DNA of 64,000 nucleotides from Escherichia coli (GCF_036507355.1 NZ_AP027877.1), one strand, 5' to 3'; counted from the stretch's first letter, positions 14,653 through 64,000 are shown. Notes: generated by a model not told the origin, from the letters alone. Numbers and translations: made by a program.

Positions 14653-14687
14653 TCGAACAATGGCGACAACAATTTCCCATTGAAGCG

Positions 14688-15506
14688 ATGTGTCAGGTAT
14701 TTGGTGTATCCAGGAGCGGTTATTACAACTGGGTACAGCATGAACCCTCAGACAGAAAACAAAGTGATGAGCGGCTAAAACTGGAGATTAAGGTGGCACA
14801 TATCCGCACTCGCGAAACATATGGAACCCGGCGGCTCCAGACGGAGCTGGCAGAGAATGGCATCATCGTTGGTCGTGACCGACTGGCACGTCTTCGTAAG
14901 GAGCTAAGGCTACGCTGTAAGCAGAAACGCAAGTTCAGAGCGACTACGAACTCGAACCACAATCTGCCAGTTGCGCCAAATCTGCTGAACCAGACGTTCG
15001 CTCCTACAGCACCAAATCAGGTCTGGGTGGCGGACCTGACGTATGTTGCCACACAGGAGGGATGGTTGTACCTCGCTGGCATCAAAGATGTTTATACGTG
15101 CGAAATTGTCGGCTACGCCATGGGAGAGCGCATGACAAAAGAGCTGACAGGTAAAGCCCTGTTTATGGCGCTCAGGAGCCAGCGCCCACCTGCCGGGCTA
15201 ATCCACCACTCTGATCGAGGTTCACAGTACTGCGCATACGATTACCGGGTCATACAGGAGCAGTTTGGTCTGAAAACATCAATGTCGCGTAAAGGTAACT
15301 GTTACGACAACGCTCCGATGGAAAGCTTCTGGGGAACGCTGAAAAATGAGAGCCTGAGCCACTATCGTTTTAATAACCGGGATGAAGCCATCTCAGTAAT
15401 ACGGGAATACATTGAGATTTTCTACAATCGTCAGCGTCGTCACTCTCGTCTGGGGAATATCTCCCCGGCAGCCTTCAGGGAAAAATATCATCAGATGGCT
15501 GCTTAA
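14688..15506 (+). CDS. IS3-family transposase OrfB (DDE integrase core; probably made as an OrfAB frameshift fusion)
   Basis: 272-aa ORF with DLTYV...HHSDRGSQY...SRKGNCYDNAPMESFW DDE signature. Confidence 0.85.
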   Translation: MCQVFGVSRSGYYNWVQHEPSDRKQSDERLKLEIKVAHIRTRETYGTRRLQTELAENGIIVGRDRLARLRKELRLRCKQKRKFRATTNSNHNLPVAPNLLNQTFAPTAPNQVWVADLTYVATQEGWLYLAGIKDVYTCEIVGYAMGERMTKELTGKALFMALRSQRPPAGLIHHSDRGSQYCAYDYRVIQEQFGLKTSMSRKGNCYDNAPMESFWGTLKNESLSHYRFNNRDEAISVIREYIEIFYNRQRRHSRLGNISPAAFREKYHQMAA

Positions 15507-15530
15507 AAAAAGAATAAATGGTAGTGTCCG

Positions 15531-17237
15531 CTATTGCCAGTACACCTCAAATATTTCTGTATATCCCTCTCTGTCTGTTTCACCACGCGTCTGTGTGCCA
15601 TCCTCAAAAAAGGCAATATACTGCGTCTCTGAATACGGTATCCCGTCATCGTCCGTAAAATGGAACTGGAGGGTATATTTTTCAGGATCATCTTCATCGT
15701 CACCGCCATCACCTCCTCCGTCACTCCCTGCGGGATTGCCACTATCCTCTCCGGAGTCATCACTGCCATCATCACTGCTCTCATCCTCCGGAGCCTCCAG
15801 CACCGCCGGCTGCATCGTCCCCACCGGTGTCCCCGCACTGCCCCCACCGTTCAGGTTTATCTTCGGCCCGGCAATATCCACTCCGCCCGGCTGAATGACG
15901 ATAAACGAGCCACCCACCTTCAGGCTTATCCGGCTGCTGCTCTCCAGCACGATATCCCCGTCCACTTTTATCCCCAGCGCGCCACTCACCTTCTCCGCCA
16001 GGTCCCCCTTCACCACCAGGCTGTGTTTCCCCTCCACCAGACTGATATGGTTCCCCGTCGTCTTATGCTCCTGCTTCCCTTCCACCGTCACTTTACGGTC
16101 GTTTCTGACGTACAGACCGTCATCGTGACTCACGCTCACCGTCCGGTCATTCGTCACCTTCAGAGTCTGGTCATTACGTACCGTGATACGCCGGTCGTTC
16201 GCCACCGTGATACTCTGGTCGTGGCCCCCCTCTTTTTTTGTACCGACCTGAACCGTCTGACCCTTCACCACCGTTATCTTCTGGTCGTTACCGATGGTTT
16301 CCGTATGGTCATGTTTTACATCCGTTGTCCGGTCGTTGAGCACCTCCGTATCCATGTTCTTCTGCGCATGGATATACACCTGCTCATTACTGGTGGCGTC
16401 TTCAAACCGCAGCTCGTTAAATCCGCTTCCTTTATAGGTTTTTGACCGTATCGTCATCTGCGTCTTCGTTCCCGGCAGGTCGCCCGGGGAGCGGTTGTCC
16501 TCATGGTACGTCCGCCCCATGATTATCGGCTGGTCCGGGTCTCCGTTCAGAAAATCAACAATCACCTCCTGGCCCACCCGCGGTATCGCCAGATTACCGA
16601 ACCCCGGCCCCGCCCACGCCTGCGATACCCGCACCCAGCATGAACTCGCCTCCGTCATCCCGTGATAACGGTCCCAGTGGAACTTCACCCGTACCCGGCC
16701 ATGTTCATCGCAGAAGATTTCCTCTCCCGCAGGCCCGGTGACAATGGCACTCTGCGGCCCGTCCACCTTCGGTTTGCTTTGCAGCCGTGGACGCCACGTC
16801 CGGTCCGCCGGTATCACCTCTAACTGATTTCCCAGCGTGGTTCCTCTCCCTTGGCTGCCGTGCAGCGCCTGCGGCTGGCTTCCTGACAGTATGCTCTGTA
16901 CCACCTGCCATTCACGGTTCAGCATCTTCTGCGGATGCCCCGTCAGCGTAAACCGCGTTCCCGGCCACAGCCTCGGCGAATTACTCTGCCCTGTGGCCTT
17001 TTCCGCATCACTGCGCAGGCTCTCCATCTGGTACAGCGTGAAATCCTTGCCGTGCTGCTCATCCTTGAACCTTCCCGGATAATCAAATATTTCATACTGC
17101 GCCAGCTGTCCGTTCAGGTTCTCACCCTGCTGCTCATACATCCCCGGCCAGTCCGGCACCTTAAACGTGTAATCCTGGCTCTGCACCGACGACGGGCGGA
17201 CATGCGCCTCATACGCTACCGCCCGGGTTTCCGGCAT
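15531..17237 (-). pseudogene. vgrG: vgrG (T6SS spike) lacking the N-terminal ~220 aa and interrupted 33 codons before its stop by IS600-like copy 1
   Basis: 568-aa ORF with gp5-like OB-fold motif (GPAGEEIFCDEHGRVRVKFHWDRY) only ~165 aa from its start, repeated VxxNDR beta-helix segments, DUF2345-like region, acidic Gly/Asp linker and a short C-terminal domain; the last residues EVYWQ are encoded by the IS terminus. Confidence 0.8.
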
Positions 17238-18772: not shown

Positions 18773-19057
18773 GTGCCCATGAGCGGTAAGCGTTATCCCG
18801 AAGAGTTTAAAATTGAAGCAGTCAAACAGGTTGTTGATCGCGGTTATTCTGTTGCCAGCGTTGCAACACGTCTCGATATCACCACCCACAGCCTTTACGC
18901 CTGGATAAAGAAGTACGGTCCGGATTCTTCCGCTAATAAAGAACAGTCAGATGCTCAGGCCGAGATCCGCCGTCTCCAGAAAGAGCTGAAGCGGGTTACC
19001 GACGAACGGGACATATTAAAAAAAGCCGCGGCGTACTTCGCAAAGCTGTCCGACTGA
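18773..19057 (+). CDS. IS3-family transposase OrfA
   Basis: 94-aa ORF MPMSGKRYPEEFKIEAVKQVVDRGYSVASVATRL... (HTH plus leucine zipper). Confidence 0.85.
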   Translation: MPMSGKRYPEEFKIEAVKQVVDRGYSVASVATRLDITTHSLYAWIKKYGPDSSANKEQSDAQAEIRRLQKELKRVTDERDILKKAAAYFAKLSD

Positions 19058-19113
19058 GGTACGCCTTTATCCGTGACAACACCTGTTGCTGGCCTGTTCG
19101 CCTGCTCTGTCGG

Positions 19114-19926
19114 GTGCTGGATGTTCATCCCAGTGGTTTTTACGCCTGGCTTCAGCAGCCGCATTCACAACGCCATCAGGCAGACCTGAGGCTGACAGGG
19201 CAGATTAAACAGTTCTGGCTGGAATCGGGATGCGTCTATGGTTATCGCAAAATCCATCTGGATCTGCGGGACAGCGGGCAACAGTGCGGAGTGAACAGAG
19301 TCTGGCGACTGATGAAACGTGTCGGGATAAAGGCTCAGGTCGGATACCGGAGCCCGCGGGCACGTAAAGGCGAGGCCAGTATCGTGTCGCCCAACAGGCT
19401 CCAGCGACAGTTCAATCCGGATGCTCCGGATAAGCGTTGGGTAACGGACATAACCTACATCAGGACCCACGAAGGCTGGCTGTATCTTGCCGTGGTTGTT
19501 GATCTGTTCTCACGCAAAATTATCGGCTGGTCCATGCAATCCCGGATGACAAAGGACATTGTCCTGAACGCACTGCTGATGGCTGTATGGCGCCGTAATC
19601 CCCAAAAACAGGTGCTGGTTCATTCGGATCAGGGCAGTCAGTACACAAGCCATGAGTGGCAGTCGTTCCTGAAATCACACGGCCTGGATGGCAGCATGAG
19701 CCGTCGCGGTAACTGCCATGATAATGCGGTTGCAGAAAGCTTTTTCCAGTTGTTGAAACGCGAACGGATAAAGAAAAAGATCTACGGAACGCGGGAAGAA
19801 GCCCGCAGCGATATTTTTGATTACATCGAAATGTTTTATAACAGTAAGCGTCGGCATGGTTCCAGCGATCAGATGTCACCGACAGAATATGAAAACCAGT
19901 ATTATCAACGGCTCGGAAGTGTCTAG
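19114..19926 (+). CDS. IS3-family transposase OrfB (DDE)
   Basis: 270-aa ORF with DITYIRTHEGWLYLAVVVDLFSRK...HSDQGSQYTS...SRRGNCHDNAVAESFF DDE signature. Confidence 0.85.
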   Translation: MLDVHPSGFYAWLQQPHSQRHQADLRLTGQIKQFWLESGCVYGYRKIHLDLRDSGQQCGVNRVWRLMKRVGIKAQVGYRSPRARKGEASIVSPNRLQRQFNPDAPDKRWVTDITYIRTHEGWLYLAVVVDLFSRKIIGWSMQSRMTKDIVLNALLMAVWRRNPQKQVLVHSDQGSQYTSHEWQSFLKSHGLDGSMSRRGNCHDNAVAESFFQLLKRERIKKKIYGTREEARSDIFDYIEMFYNSKRRHGSSDQMSPTEYENQYYQRLGSV

Positions 19927-20198: not shown

Positions 20199-20426
20199 AT
20201 GCAGTGTTCATCACGCGATCCGCACGGTGAAATTACAGCTCACAGACTGTGGGGAAACCCGGGGCGCTGGGTGATTGAAGACGACCTGTCCAGTTACTTC
20301 GACACCGTACACCATCGACTGCTGATGAAAGCCGTACGCCGCAGGATCAGTGACGCACGTTTTATGGCCCTCCTGTGGAAAACCATCAAGGCGGGCACAT
20401 CGAGGTCGGTCTCTTTCGGGCGGTAA
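20199..20426 (+). pseudogene. reverse transcriptase fragment (group II intron/retron-type RT, as in K-12 CP4-6 ykfC)
   Basis: translation contains IEDDLSSYFDTVHHRLLMKAVRRRISDARFMALLWKTIKAG, the RT fingers/palm motif context; only about 75 codons. Confidence 0.55.
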
Positions 20427-20439
20427 GTGACGCCGCGCC

Positions 20440-20684
20440 AGCTGACGTTGCCACGAATATTCGCCAATACGCTGCCAGACTTCGGTATGAAAGCGCAGAA
20501 TCAATGACCGGTAATCGGCCATGCTTTCGCGGTACGGCAGCGTCAACGTAAAGCAGAACACCACGAGTCGTGGGTAATGGTCAACGGCCTGTTGCAGAAA
20601 GGCTCGTGTATTTGTCGTGTCAGTCGAATTGCCGGAGACGATGGAGGGAGAATAAGGATTCATAACGGCGCTCTCAATGAACAC
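20440..20684 (-). pseudogene. prophage-remnant protein fragment (possibly inovirus Gp2-like)
   Basis: N-terminal part of minus-strand ORF 20211..20684 (MNPYSPSIVSGNSTDTTNTRAFLQQAVDHYPRL...); the rest of that ORF overlaps the RT fragment on the other strand and is probably read-through. Confidence 0.3.
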
Positions 20685-20888
20685 TGGTGTGATGGACAGG
20701 AGTGTGATGTTGCAGGTGTGCTGCTCATCATCGATCCCATATCATTACGTTCGCTCACTAAGACGGAGTGCCTTTCGTCATTTAACCTGTCACAATCCAA
20801 ATAATTTCAGACAGATATTATCTCCGTGAATCCCCCGCCTCCTTAACCGGAGCGCGGGGATTTTTCTTTTTCACGTTGAGAACTCTGT

Positions 20889-29862: not shown

Positions 29863-29939
29863 TGGCGGAACGGACGGGACTCGAACCCGCGACCCCCTGC
29901 GTGACAGGCAGGTATTCTAACCGACTGAACTACCGCTCC
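29863..29939 (-). tRNA. aspV: tRNA-Asp (GUC)
   Basis: reverse complement GGAGCGGTAGTTCAGTCGGTTAGAATACCTGCCTGTCACGCAGGGGGTCGCGGGTTCGAGTCCCGTCCGTTCCGCCA; identical to the copy at 38087..38163. Confidence 0.95.
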
Positions 29940-50031: not shown

Positions 50032-50038
50032 TGCCAGA

Positions 50039-50066
50039 AAGGGTCCTGATTTCAGGGCCCTTTTTT
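50039..50066 (+). terminator. rho-independent terminator after proS
   Basis: aaagggtcctgatttcagggccctttttt. Confidence 0.55.
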
Positions 50067-50390
50067 ACAGGGATTGTATAAAATGGATAAACCAAAGGCG
50101 CACTACCGCCTGTTTCTCCCCTGCTTTCTTTTGCTTTCGGCCTGCACCGTTGATATCAGACAACCAGACTCATCAGCCACAGCGGTAGATGCTGAGGCGA
50201 AAACATGGGCAGTCAAATTCCAGCATCAAAGCTCTTTCACCGAACAATCAATAAAAGAAATAACTGAAACCGATCTCAAACCCGGCGATTTGCTGTTCTC
50301 CTCAAGCCTGGGGGTAACCTCATTTGGTATCCGGGTATTCAGCACTTTGAGGTGTACTGGCAATAGCGGACACTACCATTTGTTCTTTTT

Positions 50391-51209
50391 TTAAGCAGCC
50401 ATCTGATGATATTTTTCCCTGAAGGCTGCCGGGGAGATATTCCCCAGACGAGAGTGACGACGCTGACGATTGTAGAAAATCTCAATGTATTCCCGTATTA
50501 CTGAGATGGCTTCATCCCGGTTATTAAAACGATAGTGGCTCAGGCTCTCATTTTTCAGCGTTCCCCAGAAGCTTTCCATCGGAGCGTTGTCGTAACAGTT
50601 ACCTTTACGCGACATTGATGTTTTCAGACCAAACTGCTCCTGTATGACCCGGTAATCGTATGCGCAGTACTGTGAACCTCGATCAGAGTGGTGGATTAGC
50701 CCGACAGGTGGGCGCTGGCTCCTGAGCGCCATAAACAGGGCTTTACCTGTCAGCTCTTTTGTCATGCGCTCTCCCATGGCGTAGCCGACAATTTCGCACG
50801 TATAAACATCTTTGATGCCAGCGAGGTACAACCATCCCTCCTGTGTGGCAACATACGTCAGGTCCGCCACCCAGACCTGATTTGGTGCTGTAGGAGCGAA
50901 CGTCTGGTTCAGCAGATTTGGCGCAACTGGCAGATTGTGGTTCGAGTTCGTAGTCGCTCTGAACTTGCGTTTCTGCTTACAGCGTAGCCTTAGCTCCTTA
51001 CGAAGACGTGCCAGTCGGTCACGACCAACGATGATGCCATTCTCTGCCAGCTCCGTCTGGAGCCGCCGGGTTCCATATGTTTCGCGAGTGCGGATATGTG
51101 CCACCTTAATCTCCAGTTTTAGCCGCTCATCACTTTGTTTTCTGTCTGAGGGTTCATGCTGTACCCAGTTGTAATAACCGCTCCTGGATACACCAAATAC
51201 CTGACACAT
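50391..51209 (-). CDS. IS3-family transposase OrfB (DDE)
   Basis: 272-aa ORF, identical to 14688..15506 except one residue. Confidence 0.85.
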   Translation of the reverse strand: MCQVFGVSRSGYYNWVQHEPSDRKQSDERLKLEIKVAHIRTRETYGTRRLQTELAENGIIVGRDRLARLRKELRLRCKQKRKFRATTNSNHNLPVAPNLLNQTFAPTAPNQVWVADLTYVATQEGWLYLAGIKDVYTCEIVGYAMGERMTKELTGKALFMALRSQRPPVGLIHHSDRGSQYCAYDYRVIQEQFGLKTSMSRKGNCYDNAPMESFWGTLKNESLSHYRFNNRDEAISVIREYIEIFYNRQRRHSRLGNISPAAFREKYHQMAA

Positions 51210-51244
51210 CGCTTCAATGGGAAATTGTTGTCGCCATTGTTCGA

Positions 51245-51547
51245 TTAACGCGTATTTTTCAGCGACTCCTGTGCAAAATACGCTGTTGCTTTTTTTAATA
51301 TATCTCGCTCAAGGCGAGCTTCATTTAACGCCTTACGCAGTTGCAGAATTTCAGATTCCAGTTCAGCCACCGTGCGGGAACCAGGAGTACCGAGCCCTTT
51401 TCTGGCGGCGGTAACCCATTGTCCTAAAGTGCCTTCAGGAAGAGATAATCGGGAAGCGCCTTCACTGATCGAAAGTTGATTTTCAAGAACCGTTCTGACA
51501 GCTTCGGCTTTGAACTCTTTAGAGTAACGTTGGGTTTTTCTGCTCAT
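51245..51547 (-). CDS. IS3-family transposase OrfA
   Basis: 100-aa ORF identical to 14350..14652. Confidence 0.85.
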   Translation of the reverse strand: MSRKTQRYSKEFKAEAVRTVLENQLSISEGASRLSLPEGTLGQWVTAARKGLGTPGSRTVAELESEILQLRKALNEARLERDILKKATAYFAQESLKNTR

Positions 51548-52179
51548 TATTAGCTCCTTCTGATGCCATTCTATTTCAGGAAGGAGTGTCCGTTAAACTC
51601 AGGCTACCTCACTTCTTCCGTCAGTCATGTGGCTATCTATCTGGGTGATAATAACGTTGCAGAAGCGACGGGCGCTGGCGTCCAGATTGTTTCCCTTAAA
51701 AAAGCCATGAAGCACAGTGATAAGCTTTTCGTCTTACGAGTCCCGGACCTTACCCCGCAACAAGCCTCAGATATCGCCGCATTCGCCAATAAAATCAAAG
51801 ATAGCGGTTATAACTATCGCGGCATTGTCGAGTTCATTCCCTTTATGGTGACCCGCCAGATGTGCTCACTAAATCCGTTCTCCGAGGATTTTCGCCAACA
51901 GTGCGTCAGCGGCCTGGCGAAAGCGCAGTTAAGCAGTGTGGGCGAAGGAGACAAAAAGTCGTGGTTTTGTTCGGAATTTGTCACTGATGCATTTGCCAAA
52001 GCCGGGCATCCGCTTACGCTGGCGCAATCGGGCTGGATTAGCCCTGCCGATCTGATGCATATGCGTACTGGCGATGTCTCTGCGTTTAAGCCCGAAACGC
52101 AGTTACAGTATGTTGGGCACCTGAAGCCAGGGATTTATATCAAGGCGGGTCGCTTTGTTGGTTTGACCCGGTGATAAAG

Positions 52180-52300
<121 letters not shown>

Positions 52301-52373
52301 AAAACGTGCAAATTCAAAATGTTGAAATATATCCTTCTGGCCTGTTTTGCGTTTGTTTCTGTCTCAAGACGGG

Positions 52374-53084
52374 TTACTGCCCCAAACTACTGCAATCCTT
52401 GTTTGGGTAAAATTTACCTGCCGTATCGGGCGCTAATACTTTGGTTGGCGCACCGGTATCCGGATTAGCCTCAAGCGTAAAGTGACCTTCTACTGACAGT
52501 AACACCGGTTTTTCACTGTGACCGCGCGCAGCCAGGTAGCCACGCTCCAGCTCTGCGTTATTCGCTACCATGAAACGTTTTCCGGTCGCGCAATCAGTGA
52601 AGGTCGCCGCATCAGCCATATAAAAATACATGCCCCGCAGGGTCATCGGCGTCATGGGTAAACTGGATTGTGCCGGTTCCAGCGTATAGTTGAATTGCGA
52701 TTCAATCGGATTGCCTTCACGATCGAGCATCTCCAGCGCATCGCCTTTCGCCCGATAATATGACTTTTCACCTTTGCTGTCGGTTAATACCAGCTTGTCA
52801 GCGGTTCGCGCCCATGTACCGTAGGAAGCGAAGGAGGAAGGTTCTTCACGAGCACCGAGATAACGCTCATTCATCACCCATGTTCCGTCTTTTTCGAGGA
52901 ACAGAGAGGTTTCGATTCCTTCGCAATCGGCACACGGCAGCACGCCGCGCCAACTTTGCGGCATCGGTTTCAGTTCGGCAGCCTGCGCCGGAGAAAGCGT
53001 ATCGACTTCGGCCCGATTATTACAACCCATCAGAGTAAAGAGGCTGATTACAGCCATCGCTGTCACTATCGCTTTTTTCACCAT
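52374..53084 (-). CDS. nlpE: outer-membrane lipoprotein NlpE (Cpx pathway activator)
   Basis: 236 aa; lipobox LMGC and CxxC motif. Confidence 0.9.
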   Translation of the reverse strand: MVKKAIVTAMAVISLFTLMGCNNRAEVDTLSPAQAAELKPMPQSWRGVLPCADCEGIETSLFLEKDGTWVMNERYLGAREEPSSFASYGTWARTADKLVLTDSKGEKSYYRAKGDALEMLDREGNPIESQFNYTLEPAQSSLPMTPMTLRGMYFYMADAATFTDCATGKRFMVANNAELERGYLAARGHSEKPVLLSVEGHFTLEANPDTGAPTKVLAPDTAGKFYPNKDCSSLGQ

Positions 53085-53097
53085 CCATTCCTTCTTT

Positions 53098-53520
53098 TTA
53101 TTCCTGACCGCTGCGTACTTTGCCGCGCATCGCCTTCACGCTTGATTTTTGTGCTTTCGATGCCAGCCTGCGCTCTTTCGATGCACGGGTGGGCCGCGTG
53201 GGTCGTCGGGCTTTTTGTTCTGTTGTTAAATCTTTAATCACTGCCACCAGCCGGGCCAGCGCCGCTTCGCGGTTCAGTTCCTGATTGCGGTATTCCTGTG
53301 CCTTAATGACAATTACGCCATCACTGCTGATCAAATGATGGCTGGCGGCGAGCAGACTCTCTTTGTAATACTCTGGCAGGCTGGATGCCCGAATGTCAAA
53401 ACGCAGATGAATGGCCGTTGAGGTCTTATTAACATGCTGCCCGCCCGCGCCCTGCGCACGAATGGCGGTGATCTCAAGCTCACCATCGGGAATAGCAACA
53501 TGTCGGGAAATCACAATCAT
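53098..53520 (-). CDS. arfB: peptidyl-tRNA hydrolase ArfB (YaeJ), ribosome rescue factor
   Basis: 140 aa; GGQ motif (AGGQHVNKT) and basic C-terminal tail. Confidence 0.9.
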
Positions 53521-54062
53521 GAAGGTTGTTGCCAGGCGGTTAAGTTCACTTCCAGATTATTCTTATCATCCGATAACCAGATCACGCCATCCTGAATCGT
53601 TGCCTGCAGCGTCATGGTACGATCGGCAAAGGCGCTTACTTTCGCCAGTTGTTCATCGTCCAGATACCAGACGGAAAGATTGGCAAACTGCACACATTTG
53701 CTCTGATTTTGCTGCCACCAGATTTGCGCCGCCCGACTATTATAGGTAAACAGCGCCACTTCTGCGGCCTGGGTGCAGGCTTTCTTAATCCGCCGCTCAT
53801 CCGGCAGCCCCAGCTCAATCCACAAATCAATGCCCAGGTGATCGTTACGCAGCCACGCTTCCGGCTCATCATCGGCACACAAACCACGGGTAAATTGCAG
53901 ACGTTCATCAGCATATTTCAGCCACGCCAGCAAGCGCAGCATCATACGCTCCTGGGTTTCTGAAGGGTGGCGCGCCAGCGTCAGAGAGGCATCGAGAAAC
54001 TGGTTGCGGTCGAGATCGGCCACATTAACCGTCGCTTTATAAATTGTCGCTTTAAGCGCCAT
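53517..54062 (-). CDS. yaeQ: YaeQ-family protein
   Basis: 181 aa; stop overlaps arfB start. Confidence 0.8.
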
Positions 54063-54227
54063 AAGAAAACTCCTTTCGAATCAGGAGGCCATTGTAACGG
54101 AATACGTGCAGTTGCGGCGCTGATATTGCAGAAATGAGTGTGGTATAGTCACCTTGCGAAACAGAGTTTATCTTCGTAGGCTTAGACTTGCATCCACGGT
54201 TAAGTCAGAGTGCTGACAGGAGGGCAT

Positions 54228-54428
54228 GTGGAAAAATATTGTGAGTTAATACGCAAGCGGTACGCGGAAATCGCCAGCGGAGACTTAGGATACGTTCCGG
54301 ACGCGCTGGGCTGCGTTTTGAAAGTGCTGAATGAAATGGCTGCCGACGACGCCCTTTCTGAGGCTGTCAGGGAAAAAGCAGCATACGCTGCGGCAAACTT
54401 ACTGGTGAGCGATTATGTCAATGAATGA
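54228..54428 (+). CDS. yaeP: small UPF0253-family protein YaeP
   Basis: 66 aa from probable GTG start ([15 protein letters not shown]); ORF-track start 54210 likely too long. Confidence 0.65.
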
Positions 54429-54675
54429 TACGTATCAACCAATCAATTGTGATGATTACGATAATCTTGAGCTCGCCTGCCAGCATCATTTAATGCTGAC
54501 ACTTGAGCTGAAAGATGGCGAAAAATTGCAGGCAAAAGCCAGCGATTTAGTCTCCCGCAAAAATGTGGAGTATCTGGTCGTCGAGGCCGCTGGCGAAACC
54601 CGTGAGCTACGTCTGGATAAAATTACCAGCTTTAGCCACCCGGAAATCGGTACGGTGGTGGTGAGCGAGTCCTGA
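54415..54675 (+). CDS. rof: Rho-binding antiterminator Rof (YaeO)
   Basis: 86 aa [25 protein letters not shown]... Confidence 0.8.
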
Positions 54676-54683
54676 TTGACTTT

Positions 54684-54718
54684 CGCCGGATGCGACGCTT
54701 AATGCGTCATATCCGGCC
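54684..54718. repeat. REP-like palindromic element between convergent rof and tilS
   Basis: cgccggatgcgacgcttaatgcgtcatatccggcc. Confidence 0.45.
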
Positions 54719-54727
54719 TTCACTTAA

Positions 54728-56023
54728 CTAAGCGTTTCGCTGCCAGACAAAACTTATGCCATTCTCACCTTCAGCCACACCTTCTTGCGTCACAAATACC
54801 CCTGCCGCCGCAATCAGCGTTTCGCCATAAAACAGCAGTGGCGTGGTGTCACGTAGCCACGGCGGCACGCCCAGCTCTTGCCAGATTTTCTTTAGCTTAC
54901 GTCCGCCGTTACGCCCGACAATATGCAGCAATCCTGGCGCTTTGAAACGCACGCTGACCGCTTCGTCTGCACGCGGAGGGCGAATAGCACCTCCCGCATT
55001 AAGCTGTACACTTCCCAGCCCCGCCGGTAATTCCAGCGGTTGAAGCCACGTCTGCCACGGCACAATGTTTTCGCTTTGCCCGGTGACGGATTTAATCCAC
55101 CACAGTTGCGACTGATAGCGTCGGATTTCAAACGCGCCCAAACGTAAACAGGGGGAGGCATCTTCCCGCGCCAGCGCCACTTCCTGCCAGATCCTCACCA
55201 ACGCGTCGCGGGAAGGCATCGGTGCATTCTGCCCTGCCAGCCAGCGGCGGATAATCGCCGCGCGGCGGGCATCACTCATCGCCAGCATTGGCACAATCTG
55301 CAGCGTCCCCTGCGGCGATTGACAGTGTGCTAAATCATCCGCCAGCAGTTCATCCAACAGGCTCTCTTGTTCAGCACAAAGTGCGGCGCTGCGGGCCGTT
55401 GCTTCGGCAAAATGCGGCCAACGCTGCTGCAATAACGGCACTATGCGCAGGCGCAGAAAGTTACGATCATATGAGTCGTCCTGATTACTTTCGTCTTCAA
55501 TCCAGCGTAAACCATGCGCCAATGCCCACTGCTCCAGTTCCCCCCGCGTGCGGGCGAGCAACGGGCGGATAAGCCGTGTTCCGGCAAACTCCGAAACTTC
55601 CCCCATAGCCGAAAGCCCGGCAGGACCGCTACCGCGTTTTAGCGCCAGCAGAAAAGTTTCACATTGATCGTCGAGATGTTGCGCAGTGACCAGCACTTCA
55701 CCGGGTAACAGGGTACGAGCAAATGCCTGATAACGCGCCTGCCGCGCCTGGGCCTCAATGCCCAGTCCTTCTTGCGCAAGTTGCACGCGCTCGACCAACA
55801 GCGGCACCAGCCACTGTTGGCAGATGTTCTCGCAATGCATAACCCAGGCGTCGGCATTGGCACTTAAACCGTGATGCACATGAATAGCGCGCAGAGTGAC
55901 GCCCGGATTTTCCGCCCGCCACTGCACCAACTGATGCAGCAGAACGGTGGAGTCAAGCCCGCCGCTAAAGGCCACCAGAATCTGGCGTGAGGTGAGAAGT
56001 TGTCTTTTGAGCGTGAGTGTCAT
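54728..56023 (-). CDS. tilS: tRNA(Ile)-lysidine synthetase
   Basis: 431 aa; PP-loop SGGLDS motif. Confidence 0.9.
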
Positions 56024-56087
56024 GATGGTGCAATTTTACAGTAGCAATGCCCGGCACGTTACCGGGCAAATGCGGCGATGACAAGCC

Positions 56088-56477
56088 TTACTGCTCATAC
56101 AGTTCCAACGGCAGCCCGTCCGGATCGTTAAAGAAGGTGAAGCGTTTTTGCGTGTATGGATCGACACGGATGGCTTCACACTTCACGTTATGGCTTTCAA
56201 GGTGCGCCACTGCCGCATCGATGTCATCAACGCTAAAAGCCAGATGACGCAGGCCGCAAGCTTCCGGTCGGCTGGGGCGCTCCGGCGGGAACGGAAATGA
56301 GAAAAGCTCAATCACATATTGCCCATTAAGCGCCAAATCCCCTTTCCACGAGTCGCGCGCTTCGCGATAGACTTCGCTTTGCAGCGTGAAACCAAGAATA
56401 TCGCAGTAGAAAGCTTTGCTCACCGCATAATCCGTCGCAATAATCGCAATATGGTGAACCTGTTTTAAACCCAGCAT
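56088..56477 (-). CDS. yaeR: glyoxalase/VOC-family protein YaeR
   Basis: 129 aa from MLGLKQVHHIAIIATDY (ORF 56088..56504 has a short N-terminal extension). Confidence 0.8.
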   Translation of the reverse strand: MLGLKQVHHIAIIATDYAVSKAFYCDILGFTLQSEVYREARDSWKGDLALNGQYVIELFSFPFPPERPSRPEACGLRHLAFSVDDIDAAVAHLESHNVKCEAIRVDPYTQKRFTFFNDPDGLPLELYEQ

Positions 56478-56533
56478 AACGTCTCCTTTATTTGTTAACA
56501 GCACGTTACTCGCCCGGAAGCCGCTCTGGCAAG

Positions 56534-58675
56534 TTATCCCGCCATTTTTAGGACTCGTACGCGGTAAACGCCGTCTTCGTCCTGTTTCGCGCCGTGAATA
56601 TCCGTTTCAAAACCGGGGTAATGTTGCCCTACGGAACAAAGCATCAGTAGAAAATCGAGTACCGTGCGGCTCTCTTTGGTCAGCATTTCTCCAGGCATCA
56701 ACAGCGGTACGCCAGGAGGATAAGGCAGGATCATATTTGCCGATACTCTACCGACCAGTTGTTCCAGCGCAATGGTTTCTACTTCACCTTTAATCTGTCT
56801 CTGCCATGCCTGATGTGGCGTCATGATCATCTCCGGCAAAGTATCGAATGCCCGCAACATCAAACCGGGAAGATCGTGTTTACGAATTAGCTTATGGATC
56901 CCTTGCGCCAGATCCTGAATACGCATATTGCGGTAGAAATCGGGATCTTCTGCGTACAGATCCGGAAGCATATTTTTGATTCGCAGATTGAGATCGTAAG
57001 AGCGTTTAAATTCCGTCAACCCACGCAATAATCCCATTGCTTTGGTTTTATCGATGCCAATACTAAAGAGAAACAGCAGGTTATATGGGCCGGTTTTCTC
57101 TACCACGATCCCACGCTCATCGAGGAACTTCGCCACCAGCGCCGCCGGGATCCCCTCCTCGCTCATATTGCCCTGCTCGTCCATCCCCGGCGTCAGAATA
57201 GTGACTTTAACCGGATCGAGGAACATATGATCGGCATCCGCATCGTTAAAGCCGTGCCATTGTTCGCCAGGCGCAACGGGCCAGCATTCGGCCTCATCCA
57301 CCTGCGGCGGTTGCCAGATATCGAAAAACCAACCGTCAGACTCTTCCCGCAGCCGCTGGACCTCTTTGCGAAAATGCAGCGCCCGCTCCACCGAACGGTT
57401 AATCAGCCGTTTGCCCGGATTACCACGCAGCATCGCTGCTGCCGTCTCAACCGAAGCAACAATGGGATAACTGGGCGAGGTGGTGGTATGCATCATAAAG
57501 GCTTCGTTAAACGCCTCTTCGTCATACTCACCTTTAATGTGGATCAGCGAAGCCTGCGATAACGCCGCCAGCATTTTGTGGGTCGATTGCGTTTCGAAGA
57601 TCACTTTTCCCGCAACACGCTCACCGCTCATACCACTTTTACCCTGGTAGATCGGATGAAAATGGGTGTACGGCACCCAGGCAGAATCGAAGTGGATCGA
57701 GGGGACATCCAGCGTCTGTTTGATCCAGTCGGTGTTGTAGAGCAAGCCATCATAGGTGGAGTTGGTGATCACCGCATGAACCGGCCATTGTGCCTGCGTG
57801 GTGGCAGCGACTTTCTCTTCGATGCTGTCACGAGTAAATTCACGGCGCGGGATCCCACCCAGAATCCCCAACGCATTACGCGTCGGTTTCAGCCAGACTG
57901 GCACTACATCGTTCATCATCAACAGATGCGCCAGTGATTTATGGCAGTTGCGGTCGATCAACAGCGTACTGCCGGATGGCGCGGCGTACATACCCACAAT
58001 TTTGTTCGACGTCGATGTTCCGTTGGTAACGATATAACTCTGTTCCGCGCCAAAAGTCCGCGCGATGTACTCTTCCGCTTCCAGGTGTGGCCCGGTGTGG
58101 TCGAGCAACGAACCAAGCTCGGTGACCGAAATAGAGACATCAGCCTTAAGAGTATTCCCGCCGAAAAAATCATAAAACAGACAGCCAACCGGGCTTTTTT
58201 GATATGCGGTGCCGCCCATATGCCCCGGCGTACAAAAGGTGTACTTCCGCTCTTTGACGTAGGTAAACAAGGCTTTCGTGAACGGCGGTGTAATGTTATC
58301 AAGATATTCGTCGGTGTACTGACGCATACGAATGGCGATATCTTCCGCCTGCCCCAGCGCATATTCAAAAAACCAGAGCGCCATCCGCATATCCTGCACG
58401 CTGACATCCATCGTCGAGTGGGTGTTGATGAAGGCATAAAGCGGGAGATATTCATTAAGCTGATTGATATCGCTACATAAATCGAGGCTGTACTCATCCC
58501 AGTCAAAAATCACGCCGCAAATTCGAGGGTTATGTTCGATAAATTTCAGCAAATCAACGCTGTTTTGTGGCCAGATAATCTGAAAGCCTTGCGCCACCAG
58601 CGCCGACTCCAGTTCTTTGATGGGCTCATCTTTATAAAAGACGCCATGCGGTCCCATAATGGCAATGATGTTCAT
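56534..58675 (-). CDS. ldcC: constitutive lysine decarboxylase
   Basis: 713 aa; sequence and position next to accA identify ldcC. Confidence 0.9.
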   Translation of the reverse strand: MNIIAIMGPHGVFYKDEPIKELESALVAQGFQIIWPQNSVDLLKFIEHNPRICGVIFDWDEYSLDLCSDINQLNEYLPLYAFINTHSTMDVSVQDMRMALWFFEYALGQAEDIAIRMRQYTDEYLDNITPPFTKALFTYVKERKYTFCTPGHMGGTAYQKSPVGCLFYDFFGGNTLKADVSISVTELGSLLDHTGPHLEAEEYIARTFGAEQSYIVTNGTSTSNKIVGMYAAPSGSTLLIDRNCHKSLAHLLMMNDVVPVWLKPTRNALGILGGIPRREFTRDSIEEKVAATTQAQWPVHAVITNSTYDGLLYNTDWIKQTLDVPSIHFDSAWVPYTHFHPIYQGKSGMSGERVAGKVIFETQSTHKMLAALSQASLIHIKGEYDEEAFNEAFMMHTTTSPSYPIVASVETAAAMLRGNPGKRLINRSVERALHFRKEVQRLREESDGWFFDIWQPPQVDEAECWPVAPGEQWHGFNDADADHMFLDPVKVTILTPGMDEQGNMSEEGIPAALVAKFLDERGIVVEKTGPYNLLFLFSIGIDKTKAMGLLRGLTEFKRSYDLNLRIKNMLPDLYAEDPDFYRNMRIQDLAQGIHKLIRKHDLPGLMLRAFDTLPEMIMTPHQAWQRQIKGEVETIALEQLVGRVSANMILPYPPGVPLLMPGEMLTKESRTVLDFLLMLCSVGQHYPGFETDIHGAKQDEDGVYRVRVLKMAG

Positions 58676-58773
58676 GTGTTCCTCCTGGAAAATCCTTCCT
58701 TAATCATAGCCTGCTCAAACCGTGGCGATAAAAAAGGGCCACCGAAGTGACCCTTTTTCAGAACTTTTGCGAA

Positions 58774-59733
58774 TTACGCGTAACCGTAGCTCATCAGGCG
58801 CTGATAACGACGATTTTTTAAATCTTCAGTGCTTAACACGTCGAGATCGGCCAGATCCGCCAGCAGTTGCGCTTTCAACGATGCCGCCATCGCTTCCGGG
58901 TTACGGTGAGCGCCGCCCAGCGGTTCCGGGATGATGGAGTCGATCAGTTTCAGCTCTTTCAGACGCGGAGCGATGATACCCATCGCTTCAGCCGCCAGCG
59001 GCGCTTTGTCGGCGCTCTTCCACAGAATGGACGCACAACCTTCCGGCGAGATAACGGAATAGGTGCTGTATTGCAGCATATTCACTTTATCGCCCACGCC
59101 AATCGCCAGCGCACCGCCAGAACCACCTTCACCGATAACCGTACAAACTACCGGTACACCGAGGCGAGACATTTCACGCAGGTTGCGTGCAATAGCTTCA
59201 GACTGACCGCGTTCTTCTGCGCCCACGCCCGGATAAGCCCCCGGGGTGTCGATAAAGGTGATGATTGGCATCTTAAAGCGTTCAGCCATTTGCATCAGGC
59301 GCAGAGCTTTGCGGTAACCTTCTGGTGCTGGCATACCAAAGTTACGGCGAATTTTTTCTTTGGTTTCACGACCTTTTTGATGACCAATGATCATCACCGG
59401 ACGACCATCGAGACGGGCGATACCACCGACGATAGCTTTATCGTCTGCATACGCGCGGTCGCCAGCCAGTTCGTCAAATTCATCAAATGCCAGGCGAACG
59501 TAATCCAGGGTATAAGGACGCTGTGGATGGCGTGCCAGTTGCGCAATCTGCCATGCACCGAGATCGGCGAAGATTTTACGCGTCAGTTCTACGCTTTTTT
59601 CACGCAGACGATGCACTTCTTCATCGATGTTAATATCCAGTTTCTCATCCTGACGGCTAACCGCAGTCAGAGAATCGATTTTCGCTTCCAGCTCTGCAAT
59701 CGGCTGTTCAAAATCAAGGAAATTCAGACTCAT
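58774..59733 (-). CDS. accA: acetyl-CoA carboxylase carboxyltransferase alpha subunit
   Basis: 319 aa [23 protein letters not shown]... Confidence 0.95.
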
Positions 59734-59745
59734 AGTATTCCTGTA

Positions 59746-62700
59746 TTAGTCAAACTCCAGTTCCACCTGCTCCGAACCAATGAGGCCACGGAGATCGTTT
59801 AATAAACGATCGCTCGGAGAGACACGCCACGTCGCGCCAAAACGCAACCGCGCGCGTGCATCCGCCCTCTGATAGTAGAGATGTACTGGAATTGTCCCAG
59901 AGCGGTGGGGTTCCAGAGACTGACGGAGTCGGTTTAAAAGCTGGTCATCAATTTGCCTGTCCGTCAGCGAGATAGCAAGCCCGCGAGCATATTTTTCCCG
60001 GGCTTCGTCAATATCCATCACTTCGCGAGCGGTCATTTTAAGCCCACCGCTGAAGTCATCAAAGCTGACCTGTCCGCTGACGATAAGTATGCGGTCTTTT
60101 TCCAGCAATTGCTGGTATTTATCCAGGGCGTCAGTAAACAACATCACTTCCAGCCGCCCGGAACGGTCATCCAGCGTGCAGATACCGATACGATTGCCGC
60201 GCTTGGTGACCATAACCCGCGCGGCAACAACGAGCCCCGCAGCCGTGATGACTTTACCACGTTCTGTCGGGTGCATGTCTTTCAGCCTTACGCCTCCGAC
60301 ATAACGCTCAATCTCTTTTAAATACTGGTTGATAGGGTGTCCGGTCAGGTACAGGCCTAACGTTTCACGTTCCCCATCTAATACCACCTGCTCCGGCCAC
60401 GGTTGGCAGCTGGCGTAGGATTGTTCAATTTGTTCCGGTTCTTCGGCCAGCACGCCGAACATATCGGCCTGACCGATAGCTTCCGCTTTCGCGTGTTGAT
60501 CTGCCGCTTTTAACGCATCACCCAGCGAGTTCATCAGCGCCGCGCGGTGTGGCCCAAGACGGTCAAACGCCCCGGACATGATCAGTTTTTCCAGCACCCG
60601 CCGGTTTAACTTTTTGGTGTCGGTTCGGGCGCAGAGATCAAACAGTTCGCGGAAGTAGCCGCCTTTATTACGGGCTTCGATGATCGCCTCAATCGGACCT
60701 TCACCGACCCCTTTGATCGCGCCAATACCATACACGATTTCGCCGTCGTCGTTGACGTGGAAATGGTAAAGACCGGAGTTTATATCTGGTGGCAGGATTT
60801 TCAGCCCCATCCGCCAGCACTCATCCACCAGGCCCACCACCTTCTCGGTGTTGTCCATATCGGCGGTCATTACCGCCGCCATAAACTCTGCCGGATAGTG
60901 CGCTTTCAGCCATAATGTTTGATATGACACCAAAGCATAGGCCGCAGAGTGCGATTTGTTAAATCCGTAACCAGCGAATTTCTCCACCAGGTCGAAGATT
61001 TTCATCGCCAGTTCGGCGTTGATTCCGTTCTTTTCTGCACCTTCAGCAAATACAGAACGTTGCTTAGCCATCTCTTCCGGCTTTTTCTTACCCATCGCAC
61101 GACGCAGCATATCCGCGCCACCGAGGGTATAACCAGAAAGCACCTGGGCAATCTGCATGACCTGTTCCTGATACAGGATGATGCCGTAGGTTGGCTCCAG
61201 TACCGGTTTCAGGCTTTCATGCTGCCACTGTACGTCCGGATAGGAGATCTCTTCGCGACCATGTTTACGGTCGATAAAGTTATCCACCATCCCTGACTGC
61301 AACGGACCAGGGCGGAACAGTGCCACCAGTGCGATCATATCTTCGAAGCAGTCAGGTTGCAGACGCTTGATCAGGTCCTTCATGCCGCGCGATTCAAGCT
61401 GGAATACCGCCGTGGTTTCCGAGCGTTGCAGCATGTCGAAGCTTTTCTTGTCATCCAGCGGGATCGCGGCGATATCCAGCGGCGGCTCGCCATTCTTCGC
61501 CCGCCGCTTGTTGATCATCTCCAGCGCCCAGTTGATGATGGTGAGCGTACGCAAACCAAGGAAGTCGAACTTCACCAGTCCGGCGTATTCAACGTCGCTT
61601 TTATCAAACTGGGTGACCGGATGTTTGCCCTCTTCATCGCAATAAAGCGGCGCAAAATCGGTAATTTTGGTCGGAGCGATAACCACCCCACCGGCGTGCT
61701 TACCGGCGTTACGGGTGACCCCTTCCAGTTTGCGCGCCATGTCGATCAGCGCCTTAACTTCTTCATCCGCTTCGTAGATTTCCGGCAGCTGCGGCTCGGC
61801 TTCAAACGCTTTCGCCAGCGTCATCCCCGGATCGGGCGGGATCAGTTTCGAGATACGATCGACAAAGCCGTACGGATGCCCCAGCACGCGGCCTACGTCG
61901 CGGATCACCGCTTTCGCCGCCATCGTACCGAAGGTGATAATCTGCGATACCGCATCACGACCGTACATGTCCGCTACGTGTTCGATAACCTGATCGCGTT
62001 TCTCCATACAGAAGTCAACGTCGAAGTCAGGCATGGAGACACGTTCCGGGTTAAGGAAACGTTCGAACAGCAGGTCAAATTCCAGCGGATCGAGGTCGGT
62101 GATTTTCAGCGCGTAGGCCACCAGTGAACCCGCACCGGAGCCACGGCCTGGCCCTACCGGTACGCCGTTATCTTTCGACCACTGGATAAATTCCATAACG
62201 ATAAGGAAGTAGCCCGGGAAGCCCATCTGGTTGATAACCTGAAGTTCAGTCTCCAGACGTTCGTCATATTCCGGGCGGCGCTTAACACGTTCTTCCTCAT
62301 CAGGGAATAAAAAGGCCAGACGCTCTTCCAGGCCCTCTTTTGCACGCTTGACCAGATAATCTTCGGTGCTCATGTCCCCGGTCGGGAACTGCGGCAGGAA
62401 GTATTCACCAAGACGCACAGTTACGTTACAGCGTTTGGCGATCTCAACGGTGTTGGCAAGGGCTTCTGGGATGTCGGCAAACAGCTCGCACATCTCCTCT
62501 TCGCTACGCATATATTGCTGCGGCGAATAGTTACGCGGGCGTTTAGGATCGTCGAGGGTAAAGCCGTCGTGGATCGCGACACGGATTTCGTGTGCATCAA
62601 AGTCGCTACTGTCGATAAAGCGCACATCATTGGTCGCCACGACGGGCAAACCGCGCGCTTCCGCCAGTTCCACCGCCGCGTGCAGATAGCTTTCTTCGTC

Positions 62701-63228
62701 CGGCCTGCCGGTGCGGATCAGCTCGAGAAAATAGCGATCCGGGAAGTGTTCTTCATAAAACGCGACACACTCATCTACCAGCGCGCTGTTACCACGCAAA
62801 AGACTGCGTCCGACGTCGCCCATGCGCCCGCCGGAAAGAAGGATCAACCCTTCGTTTAATTCGATAAGCCAGTCGCGATCGATGATCGGCCCGGCGGCAC
62901 CGTACCCGCGCTGATACGCTTTTGAGATCAGCAACGTCAGATTCTGATAGCCGGTATTGTTCGCCGCCAGTACCGTCAGGTGGGTTAACTCATCACCCAG
63001 CAGGTCGCACTGGACGTTAAAATCTGCCCCGACGATAGGCTTAATCCCTGCGCCATGTCCCGCTCCGTAGAACTTCACCAGACCGCAAAGGTTGGTGAAA
63101 TCGGTGATCGCCAGTGCTGGCATACCCAACGCCGCCGCCTTTTTTACCAGCGGTGCGGTTTTGGCCAGGCCATCGATCATCGAGTAGTCGCTGTGCACCC
63201 GCAGGTGTACGAAACGTGGTTCAGACAT
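59746..63228 (-). CDS. dnaE: DNA polymerase III alpha subunit
   Basis: 1160 aa; N-terminal PHP domain; [20 protein letters not shown]. Confidence 0.95.
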
Positions 63229-63264
63229 CTTCAGATTCCGGTTTACTTAATCTCGACACAAGAA

Positions 63265-63861
63265 TCAGGACGCAAGTCCCAGTGCGCGTTTGACAGGCCC
63301 AAAGCTGCGCCGATGATGTTCGGTCGCGCCGTGTTCAGCCAGTTTTTCCAGATGAAAAGCGGTTGGATACCCTTTGTGTTGGGCAAAACCATATTGCGGG
63401 AAAACAATATCCAGCGCCGCCATTTCGGCGTCGCGCGTCACTTTCGCCAGGATAGACGCGGCACTGATTTCCGGTACGCGGCTATCGCCTTTCACCACTG
63501 CCATCGAAGGCATCGGTAATTTCGGGCAGCGGTTACCATCAATCAACACATATTCCGGCGCAATATGCAGCCCAGCGACGGCACGCTGCATCGCCAGCAT
63601 GGTCGCATGAAGAATGTTCAGCTCGTCGATTTCGTGGGGTTCCGCGCGGCCCAGACTCCAGCTCAACGCTTTCTCTTTGATCTCTTCGCAGAGCGCCAGA
63701 CGGCGTTTTTCGCTCAGCTTTTTGGAATCATTCAGCCCGGCAATCGGGCGCGCCGGGTCGAGGATCACCGCAGCGGTGACGACCGCGCCAACTAACGGCC
63801 CGCGTCCGACTTCATCCACACCCGCAACCAGCTGCGTGTGCGGATAAACAAATTCGATCAT
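63265..63861 (-). CDS. rnhB: ribonuclease HII
   Basis: 198 aa [28 protein letters not shown]... Confidence 0.9.
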
Positions 63862-64000
63862 TGTGCTAACTCCAGAACGGCTTGTGCCGCCTGCTCATCG
63901 GCATTGCAGCGGATCTGCTGATGCAGTTCACGGAAGGTATCGTGCATCGCGTGGCTGGTTTTCCCGTTCGCCAACAGCGGTAACAGCGCCGCAGCCAGTT
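63858..64000 (-). CDS. lpxB: lipid-A-disaccharide synthase, 3' end (partial, runs off the window)
   Basis: open minus-strand frame ending with a stop that overlaps the rnhB start; conserved lpxB-rnhB-dnaE order. Confidence 0.55.

What the first reader, a model, noticed from the sequence alone, without database searches (positions are those of the whole stretch)
50083..52174. yaeF (NlpC/P60-family lipoprotein) inactivated by a clean IS600-like insertion
Removing the IS and one copy of the CTT duplication restores ...GIRVFSTSSVSHVAIYLG..., an uninterrupted yaeF reading frame. This is a recent simple insertion in a core-genome gene, consistent with IS expansion and gene decay in this lineage.
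Basis: seen in the sequence. Interest (0 to 1): 0.3.

Follow-up and report, generated by a model that had tools for sequence, protein, structure and literature searches.

The report
IS600 insertion splitting the yaeF gene
A common, well-understood jumping gene (IS600) has landed inside the conserved E. coli lipoprotein gene yaeF and split it in two; the event is real, clean and evolutionarily recent, but ordinary.

Summary
Window 50348-51611 is a complete 1264-bp IS600 on the minus strand. It is 99.9% identical to IS600 copies annotated in E. coli genomes. It has imperfect 27-nt terminal inverted repeats (TG...CA), an intact orfA, an A7 slippery site and a 385-aa OrfAB transposase. A 3-bp direct repeat (CTT) flanks it.

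Removing the IS and one CTT gives an 825-nt, 274-aa yaeF with no stop or frameshift. That protein is residue-for-residue identical to intact YaeF proteins found in other E. coli. It differs from its closest allele by one synonymous base, and dN/dS against the E. coli B allele is 0.09. So the gene was alive when it was hit.

yaeF is present in 5423 of 5426 complete E. coli genomes, and none of them has this junction. Two draft E. coli assemblies do carry the identical junction, so the insertion is fixed in a small clone.

YaeF is more precisely a YaeF/YiiX-type permuted papain-like enzyme within the NlpC/P60 superfamily. The "IS expansion and gene decay" claim is only weakly testable: the window has three IS copies, but 27 of 28 neighbouring core genes are intact. 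This is a routine IS-made pseudogene of low interest.

The parts
50083..50347 (+). yaeF 5' fragment: codons 1-88 plus the first base of codon 89. It encodes the lipoprotein signal peptide (lipobox LSAC, Cys21) and the first part of the catalytic domain. As it stands it reads on into the IS and stops at 50394 (103-aa ORF).
   Evidence: tblastn: residues 1-88, 100% to strain 33F4 YaeF; lipobox
50345..50347 (.). Left copy of the 3-bp target-site duplication (CTT)
50348..51611 (-). Complete IS600 (IS3 family), 1264 bp, with its transposase genes opposite in orientation to yaeF
   Evidence: 99.9% identity to annotated IS600 copies
50348..50374 (.). Right terminal inverted repeat (IRR, distal to orfA), begins TGAGGT
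   Evidence: (I1)
51585..51611 (.). Left terminal inverted repeat (IRL, next to orfA), ends ACCTCA
   Evidence: (I1)
51568..51596 (-). Promoter-like site (TTAACG-17-TAGAAT) overlapping IRL, upstream of orfA. It is the probable transposase promoter, but this is a consensus match only.
51245..51547 (-). orfA, 100 aa, HTH_Tnp_1 domain
51290..51296 (-). A7 slippery heptamer (A AAA AAA in the orfA frame), the probable site of the programmed -1 frameshift
   Evidence: phase checked; a -1 shift gives a 385-aa OrfAB
50391..51209 (-). orfB ORF (272 aa from the first ATG) with HTH_21 + rve integrase-core (DDE) domains. It is expressed as a 385-aa OrfAB fusion spanning 50391-51547.
   Evidence: NF033516 transpos_IS3, 413 bits, cut-off 160
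51612..51614 (.). Right copy of the 3-bp target-site duplication (CTT)
51615..52174 (+). yaeF 3' fragment: the rest of codon 89 to the stop. It carries the inferred catalytic residues His93, Glu105 and Cys207 but has no start codon or export signal of its own.
50038..50067 (+). proS intrinsic terminator (hairpin plus U-run) 16 nt upstream of the yaeF ATG. The gene downstream of yaeF (nlpE, 52374-53084) is convergent, so the insertion has no gene to be polar on.

Best explanation
A single copy of IS600 transposed into codon 89 of a functional yaeF gene in an E. coli-lineage chromosome, duplicating the 3-bp target CTT. This is a simple insertion, as is usual for IS3-family elements, and nothing else was changed.

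The insertion separates two parts of the protein. The N-terminal part holds the lipoprotein signal peptide and the first 88 residues. The C-terminal part holds all three inferred catalytic residues (His93, Glu105, Cys207). The upstream reading frame runs 15 codons into the IS and stops. The downstream part has no start codon, ribosome-binding site or export signal of its own. yaeF is therefore a null allele (inferred).

No neighbouring gene should be affected. yaeF lies between the proS terminator and the convergent nlpE.

The IS itself is intact and presumably still active. The event is recent on the scale of sequence divergence, but it is already shared by a small clone.
For: Shown by tool results:
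- IS boundaries, inverted repeats and the 1264-bp length, confirmed by a second copy with the same ends.
- 99.9% identity to annotated IS600 copies.
- CTT duplication set against the empty site in six independent E. coli loci, and a gapless alignment once the IS is removed.
- Restored 274-aa frame without stops. It is exactly identical to an intact YaeF present on 30 contigs.
- One synonymous difference from strain 33F4, and dN/dS = 0.09 against the E. coli B allele. The gene was therefore under purifying selection until about the time of insertion.
- Full-length NF008552 match.
- OrfA, an A7 slippery site in the correct phase, and a 385-aa OrfAB matching the IS3 transposase model.
- The identical junction in two independent draft assemblies, GCA_047852605.1 and GCA_021425525.1. 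Their contigs are 99.985% identical to the window and end 31-37 nt inside the IS. This rules out an assembly artefact.
- The exact 181-aa C-terminal fragment is also annotated on a 4.64-Mb E. coli chromosome (BED23736.1).
- All 27 other core genes from dnaQ to rnhB are full length.

Inferred:
- Loss of function follows from the position of the break relative to the signal peptide and the catalytic motifs (Xu et al. 2011, PMC3142127, for the His/Glu/Cys permuted triad).
- No promoter-like site was found that faces into the 3' fragment.
Against: Nothing contradicts the explanation. The limits are these:
- No expression or activity data exist. YaeF's biochemical function is unknown, so 'inactivated' has no phenotype attached.
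- 'Recent' is relative. No near-clonal genome with the empty site was found. The closest intact relatives are about 99.3% identical in the flanks, so the insertion cannot be dated.
- A 203-aa chimeric ORF (ATG 51563, inside the IS end) runs in frame into the 3' fragment. Some translation of a signal-less product therefore cannot be excluded.
Confidence: 0.95

Rival explanations
1. yaeF was already a pseudogene before the IS arrived, so the IS landed in dead DNA.
For: None found. yaeF is disrupted independently in a few other assemblies. Examples are L012, where only a 184-aa C-terminal part is called with no insertion, and L015, where a contig breaks at codon 77. The gene is therefore evidently dispensable.
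Against: The restored frame has no stop or frameshift. Its product is 100% identical to intact YaeF proteins in other E. coli. There is only one synonymous change from the nearest allele, and dN/dS is 0.09 against the B-strain allele. A promoter or regulatory defect cannot be excluded from sequence alone.
Confidence: 0.02
2. The junction is an assembly artefact: an IS copy wrongly placed inside yaeF by a repeat-collapsing assembler.
For: IS600 is repeated in this genome (two copies in the window), and repeats are where assemblies go wrong.
Against: A perfect 3-bp target duplication is present exactly at the IS ends. Two independent public assemblies have contigs that cross the same left junction base for base. 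A third genome's annotation has the matching C-terminal fragment.
Confidence: 0.01
3. The insertion does not fully abolish the gene. The 3' fragment is translated from the chimeric ORF that starts inside the IS end (MPFYFRKECPLNSGYLT-SSVSHV..., 51563-52174) or from GTG 51629. This would give a cytoplasmic, signal-less enzyme fragment that keeps His93, Glu105 and Cys207.
For: The 203-aa in-frame ORF exists. The same IS-end leader is also in frame with the gene next to the other IS600 copy. Transcription from upstream could read through the IS.
Against: No promoter-like site faces that way. No Shine-Dalgarno-like sequence precedes either start (sequence). The fragment lacks residues 65-88 of the Peptidase_C92 domain and the lipoprotein signal, so it is unlikely to fold or to reach the envelope. 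Being in frame at both copies has a chance probability of about 1/9.
Confidence: 0.04
4. The loss of yaeF was positively selected (pathoadaptive), as part of convergent gene loss in host-restricted Shigella/EIEC-like lineages, rather than being a neutral hit.
For: The insertion is fixed in a clone. IS600 is one of the five IS expanded in Shigella and in some EIEC lineages (Hawkey et al. 2020, PMC7373316). IS density in the window is about 3-5 per 100 kb, higher than the typical E. coli densities implied by that paper. Other lineages have independent yaeF lesions.
Against: Large insertions in yaeF are very rare: at most 3 of 5426 complete E. coli genomes lack a contiguous copy. yaeF does not occur in the supplementary tables of the Shigella IS study or in any paper together with 'Shigella'. 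The junction-bearing assemblies are labelled E. coli. 27 of 28 neighbouring core genes are intact. Fixation in a small clone is expected from drift alone.
Confidence: 0.05

Closest known systems
IS600 (IS3 family insertion sequence, first described in Shigella sonnei; also common in E. coli)
   Same: Length 1264 bp. It is 99.9% identical in nucleotide sequence to copies annotated 'IS3-like element IS600 family transposase'. It has TG...CA imperfect inverted repeats, orfA/orfB with an A-rich -1 frameshift site, a DDE (rve) transposase and a 3-bp target duplication.
   Different: Nothing structural. It differs by 1-2 bases from other copies. This particular insertion site (yaeF codon 89) is absent from all 5426 complete RefSeq E. 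coli genomes. The ISfinder type sequence itself was not available for comparison.
IS-mediated pseudogene formation in Shigella and enteroinvasive E. coli (Hawkey et al. 2020, PLoS Genet, PMC7373316)
   Same: The same element, one of the five IS expanded in those lineages, disrupts a conserved chromosomal gene by simple insertion. More than one near-identical copy lies in a short stretch.
   Different: The window gives no evidence that the host is Shigella or EIEC. Assemblies sharing the junction are labelled E. coli. Surrounding core genes are almost all intact. yaeF is not listed in that study's supplementary files.
[quoted passage not shown] 2011, PMC3142127)
   Same: The restored protein is a full-length YaeF equivalog (NF008552). 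The His motif (SHVAIYLG) precedes the Cys motif (WFCSEFV), which is the permuted order described for the family.
   Different: Here the gene is split between residues 88 and 89, four codons before the catalytic His. The substrate and role of E. coli YaeF remain unknown.

Membership tests
IS600 / IS3 family insertion sequence | Near-identity in nucleotide sequence and length to known IS600 copies (1264 bp) | tested here: met
   1264 bp. 99.9% identity over 100% of the length to many elements annotated IS600 in E. coli genomes. The 1264-bp reference length is from my own knowledge of the literature; a paper search for it found nothing.
IS600 / IS3 family insertion sequence | Imperfect terminal inverted repeats ending 5'-TG...CA-3' | tested here: met
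   27-nt arms, 70% complementary, TGAGGT...ACCTCA
IS600 / IS3 family insertion sequence | Two overlapping reading frames (orfA with an HTH domain, orfB with a DDE/rve domain) joined by a programmed -1 frameshift at an A-rich heptamer | tested here: met
   orfA is 100 aa with HTH_Tnp_1; orfB has HTH_21 + rve. A AAA AAA lies in the orfA frame, and a -1 shift gives a 385-aa protein. That protein matches NF033516 transpos_IS3 at 413 bits against a cut-off of 160. Frameshifting itself was not assayed.
IS600 / IS3 family insertion sequence | Short (3-bp) target-site duplication on insertion | tested here: met
   CTT on both sides, with one fewer CTT at the empty site in six E. coli loci
IS600 / IS3 family insertion sequence | Transposition activity | not testable with these tools
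   Only intactness of the ORFs and ends can be shown.
YaeF family (permuted papain-like enzyme, NlpC/P60 superfamily) | Full-length match to the family model above its curated cut-off | tested here: met
   NF008552: residues 1-274 of 274, 529 bits against 279. Pfam PF05708: 48.7 bits against 27. PF00877: 40.2 bits against 23.
YaeF family (permuted papain-like enzyme, NlpC/P60 superfamily) | Permuted order of the catalytic residues (His, then a polar residue, then Cys) | tested here: inconclusive
   His93 and Glu105 align with the His/His motif of LytE, and Cys207 aligns with the ICSEFV cysteine motif of B. cereus PPNE 3KW0. Both pairwise alignments have E of about 0.1. The order agrees with Xu et al. 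2011. No structure was modelled.
YaeF family (permuted papain-like enzyme, NlpC/P60 superfamily) | Lipoprotein signal peptide with a lipobox cysteine | tested here: met
   LSAC at residues 18-21 after a hydrophobic stretch (pattern match). Lipidation was not tested.
YaeF family (permuted papain-like enzyme, NlpC/P60 superfamily) | Conserved chromosomal position between proS and nlpE | tested here: met
Shigella/EIEC-type IS expansion with genome decay | Genome-wide high copy number of IS1/IS2/IS4/IS600/IS911 and at least 5% pseudogenes | not testable with these tools
   Only 64 kb is available. It holds 2 IS600 plus 1 other IS3-family element, 1 of 28 core genes split and vgrG degraded. Whole-genome data for the lineage could not be fetched.

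The most novel reading that the evidence does not exclude
Loss of yaeF is not a neutral accident. On this reading it is a recurrent, selected (pathoadaptive) loss of a periplasmic or outer-membrane lipid/peptide amidase in IS-rich, host-restricted E. coli/Shigella lineages, and this clone is one instance of it.
Probability: 0.04. Interest if true: 0.35.

Novelty: already known. Interest (0 to 1): 0.08.

Why it matters
It matters little. The finding adds one pseudogene to the annotation of this genome: yaeF should be marked as disrupted by IS600, and the 103-, 181- and 203-aa fragments should not be called as hypothetical proteins. It also gives a clone-specific marker, because the yaeF::IS600 junction is absent from 5426 complete E. 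coli genomes but shared by at least two draft assemblies. That junction could be used for typing. Finally, it shows that yaeF, although nearly universal in E. coli, is dispensable in at least this lineage.

Tried and rejected
- Exact look-ups of the complete chimeric ORFs (203 aa, and 103/106 aa) found nothing. The look-up succeeded only with a guessed contig-edge product (98 aa, ending 30 nt into the IS) and the GTG-start fragment (181 aa).
- The contig carrying BED23736.1 (the 4.64-Mb chromosome) is not in the contig index, so that genome could not be inspected.
- A scan of GTDB species-representative genomes for the exact left junction gave no match.
- No paper in the library mentions yaeF together with Shigella. 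yaeF is absent from the supplements of the Shigella IS study. No paper was found for 'IS600' plus '1264 bp'.
- A PDB sequence search found no significant relative of YaeF. Only E of about 0.1 motif-level alignments appeared.
- I considered whether yaeF is unusually variable, because this allele is 90-95% identical to 5176 genomes. I rejected this as noteworthy because the neighbouring nlpE has a similar synonymous divergence (dS 0.15 against 0.18).
- The 'truncated yaeF' in GCA_020556205.1 and GCA_020555935.1 was rejected as evidence. Those assemblies also have proS in pieces, so they are riddled with frameshift errors.
- I considered polar or activating effects on neighbours and rejected them. 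The proS terminator lies upstream, nlpE is convergent, and no outward promoter-like site was found.
- I did not scan the metagenome collection. It would not change the verdict.

Full report
**What is there.** Window 50083-52174 holds the two halves of yaeF separated by a 1264-bp element at 50348-51611. The element has 27-nt imperfect terminal inverted repeats, TGAGGT...ACCTCA, at 50348-50374 and 51585-51611. It carries two minus-strand reading frames.
- orfA (51547-51245) is 100 aa with an HTH_Tnp_1 domain.
- orfB (51209-50391) is 272 aa from its first ATG, with HTH_21 and rve/DDE integrase-core domains.
- An A7 heptamer at 51296-51290 lies in the X XXY YYZ phase of orfA. A -1 shift there gives a 385-aa OrfAB.
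- That OrfAB matches the NCBIfam IS3-transposase model at 413 bits against a cut-off of 160.
- A promoter-like site overlaps the orfA-proximal inverted repeat.

Over its whole length the element is 99.9% identical to copies that RefSeq annotates as 'IS3-like element IS600 family transposase'. Full-length copies occur in 1613 of 5426 complete E. coli genomes. It is therefore IS600 itself, not merely IS600-like. A second copy at 14286-15549 differs at two bases and has identical ends in unrelated flanks, which fixes the element's boundaries independently.

**The insertion is simple.**
- CTT lies immediately on both sides, at 50345-50347 and 51612-51614.
- Six E. coli loci with an intact yaeF read ...TTCAGCACTT|CTTCCGTC... 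at this point, with one fewer CTT than the window's two flanks combined.
- BLAST of strain 33F4 against the window gives two collinear blocks that abut at the IS and overlap only by the duplicated bases.
- After the IS and one CTT are removed in silico, the window aligns with three of those loci over 9719 nt with no gap.

**The gene was intact when hit.**
- This exact protein exists as an intact 'YaeF family permuted papain-like enzyme' on 30 E. coli contigs.
- It matches the YaeF equivalog model NF008552 over residues 1-274 of 274, at 529 bits against a cut-off of 279.
- It also matches Pfam Peptidase_C92 and NLPC_P60 above their thresholds.
- Against the nearest complete-genome allele (strain 33F4) there is one difference, and it is synonymous.
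- Against the E. coli B allele there are 40 differences, with dN/dS = 0.09. The allele was under purifying selection essentially up to the insertion.

**Consequence (inferred).** The break falls in codon 89.
- Upstream of it lie the lipoprotein signal (lipobox LSAC, Cys21) and the first strands of the domain.
- Downstream lie His93 and Glu105, in the SHVAIYLGDNNVAEA motif that aligns with the His/His motif of LytE. Cys207 is also downstream, in WFCSEFV, which aligns with the catalytic-Cys motif of B. cereus PPNE. These are weak alignments, but the order agrees with the permuted His/Glu/Cys triad described by Xu et al. 2011 (PMC3142127).
- The 5' ORF runs 15 codons into the IS and stops at 50394.
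- The 3' part has only a chimeric 203-aa ORF starting inside the IS end, or a GTG at 51629. Neither has a recognisable ribosome-binding site, and no promoter-like site faces that way.
- yaeF sits directly after the proS terminator and is convergent with nlpE, so no polar effect on a neighbour is expected.

**How widespread it is.** yaeF is present in 5423 of 5426 complete E. coli genomes and is contiguous in 5420 of them, so it is a core gene. None of the 5426 genomes has this yaeF-IS600 junction, and neither do the GTDB representative genomes.

I guessed the partial product that a gene caller would report at a contig end 30 nt inside the IS. That guess retrieved an exact match, EOM5651199.1, and related fragments. 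The corresponding contigs come from GCA_047852605.1 (6905 bp) and GCA_021425525.1 (6840 bp). They run from the rrnH edge to 31-37 nt inside IS600 at the identical junction, and they are 99.985% identical to the window. The exact 181-aa C-terminal fragment is also annotated on a 4.64-Mb E. coli chromosome (BED23736.1). The insertion is therefore real rather than an assembly artefact, and it is fixed in a small clone whose members are labelled E. coli.

No near-clonal genome with the empty site was found. Relatives that share the same ProS protein and have an intact yaeF are about 99.3% identical in the flanks. No complete E. coli genome exceeds 98.9% identity over the adjacent 12.4 kb. 'Recent' is therefore supported only in the sense of no post-insertion decay.

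**The 'IS expansion and gene decay' clause.**
- In its favour: the window has two near-identical IS600 copies, a third IS3-family element (about 18.7-19.9 kb), ISAs1 and group II intron remnants, and a vgrG hit by both IS600 and a 738-bp deletion. IS600 is one of the five IS expanded in Shigella and in some EIEC lineages (Hawkey et al. 2020, PMC7373316).
- Against it: all 27 other core genes from dnaQ to rnhB are full length without stops. The extra IS copies and remnants lie in accessory islands, where they are common in ordinary E. coli. Nothing in the window identifies the host as Shigella or EIEC.

The clause is plausible but untested.

**Comparison with the known, and verdict.** Every defining feature of IS600 and the IS3 family that can be read from sequence is met, and the target is a bona fide yaeF. 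This is a textbook IS-generated pseudogene. Its only specific value is correct annotation and a clone-specific marker. Novelty: already known kind. Interest: low (0.08).

The most novel reading not excluded is that yaeF loss is selected in IS-rich, host-restricted lineages. It has little support. A few independent yaeF lesions exist elsewhere, but some of those are sequencing-error artefacts, and insertions in yaeF are very rare among complete genomes.

Noticed in passing
window 14286-15549: A second complete IS600 lies here in the opposite orientation, 2 nt different from the yaeF copy. It is inserted in the 3' end of a type VI secretion vgrG, just upstream of an M35 metallopeptidase gene. 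The flanks read AAG|IS|AAT, where the empty site in strain 23CRST031 reads ...TATAAAATATTT.... So it is a simple insertion with an imperfect 3-bp duplication.
   Followed up: partly
window 17212/17213: The same vgrG lacks 738 bp (its N-terminal third) relative to strain 23CRST031, so this auxiliary T6SS cluster is degraded by two independent events.
   Followed up: partly
window 18773-19926 and about 20200-20700: A third IS3-family element lies here (orfA 94 aa, orfB 270 aa; annotated only as 'IS3 family transposase' in relatives). Next to it is a remnant of a group II intron reverse transcriptase. Both sit at the edge of a CP4-like island (YeeP-type GTPase, DUF932, DUF4942 and others) that ends at tRNA-Asp 29863-29939.
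   Followed up: partly
window 51563-52174 and 13513-14334 (minus strand): At both IS600 copies an ORF starts at an ATG 49 nt inside the orfA-proximal end, reads outward (MPFYFRKECPLNSGYLT...) and is in frame with the neighbouring gene (the yaeF 3' part; the M35 peptidase). No promoter-like site was found for it, and this is probably coincidence (about 1/9). Gene callers may report such chimeras as proteins.
   Followed up: partly
window 51612-64000: No complete RefSeq E. coli genome is more than 98.9% identical over this 12.4-kb core stretch. The yaeF allele itself is at least 99% identical in only 3 of 5423 genomes. The source lineage is poorly represented among complete E. coli genomes.
   Followed up: partly
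L012 (GCA_054663195.1) 3179-4055; L015 (Logan ERR2242032) contig end: These are other, independent yaeF lesions in different alleles. In L012 only a 184-aa C-terminal part is called, with no insertion present (a small mutation upstream). In L015 a short-read contig ends at codon 77, suggesting another repeat insertion.
   Followed up: partly
L013, L014 (GCA_020556205.1, GCA_020555935.1): These assemblies have the essential proS gene split into three or four ORFs, and nlpE, yaeQ and tsaA are broken too. They are error-rich assemblies whose 'pseudogenes' should not be trusted.
   Followed up: no
window 1549-1581: A length difference of about 69 bp with a 33-bp repeated overlap, relative to strain 23CRST031, lies in the yafJ-lpcA intergenic region. 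It is probably a REP-type repeat polymorphism.
   Followed up: no
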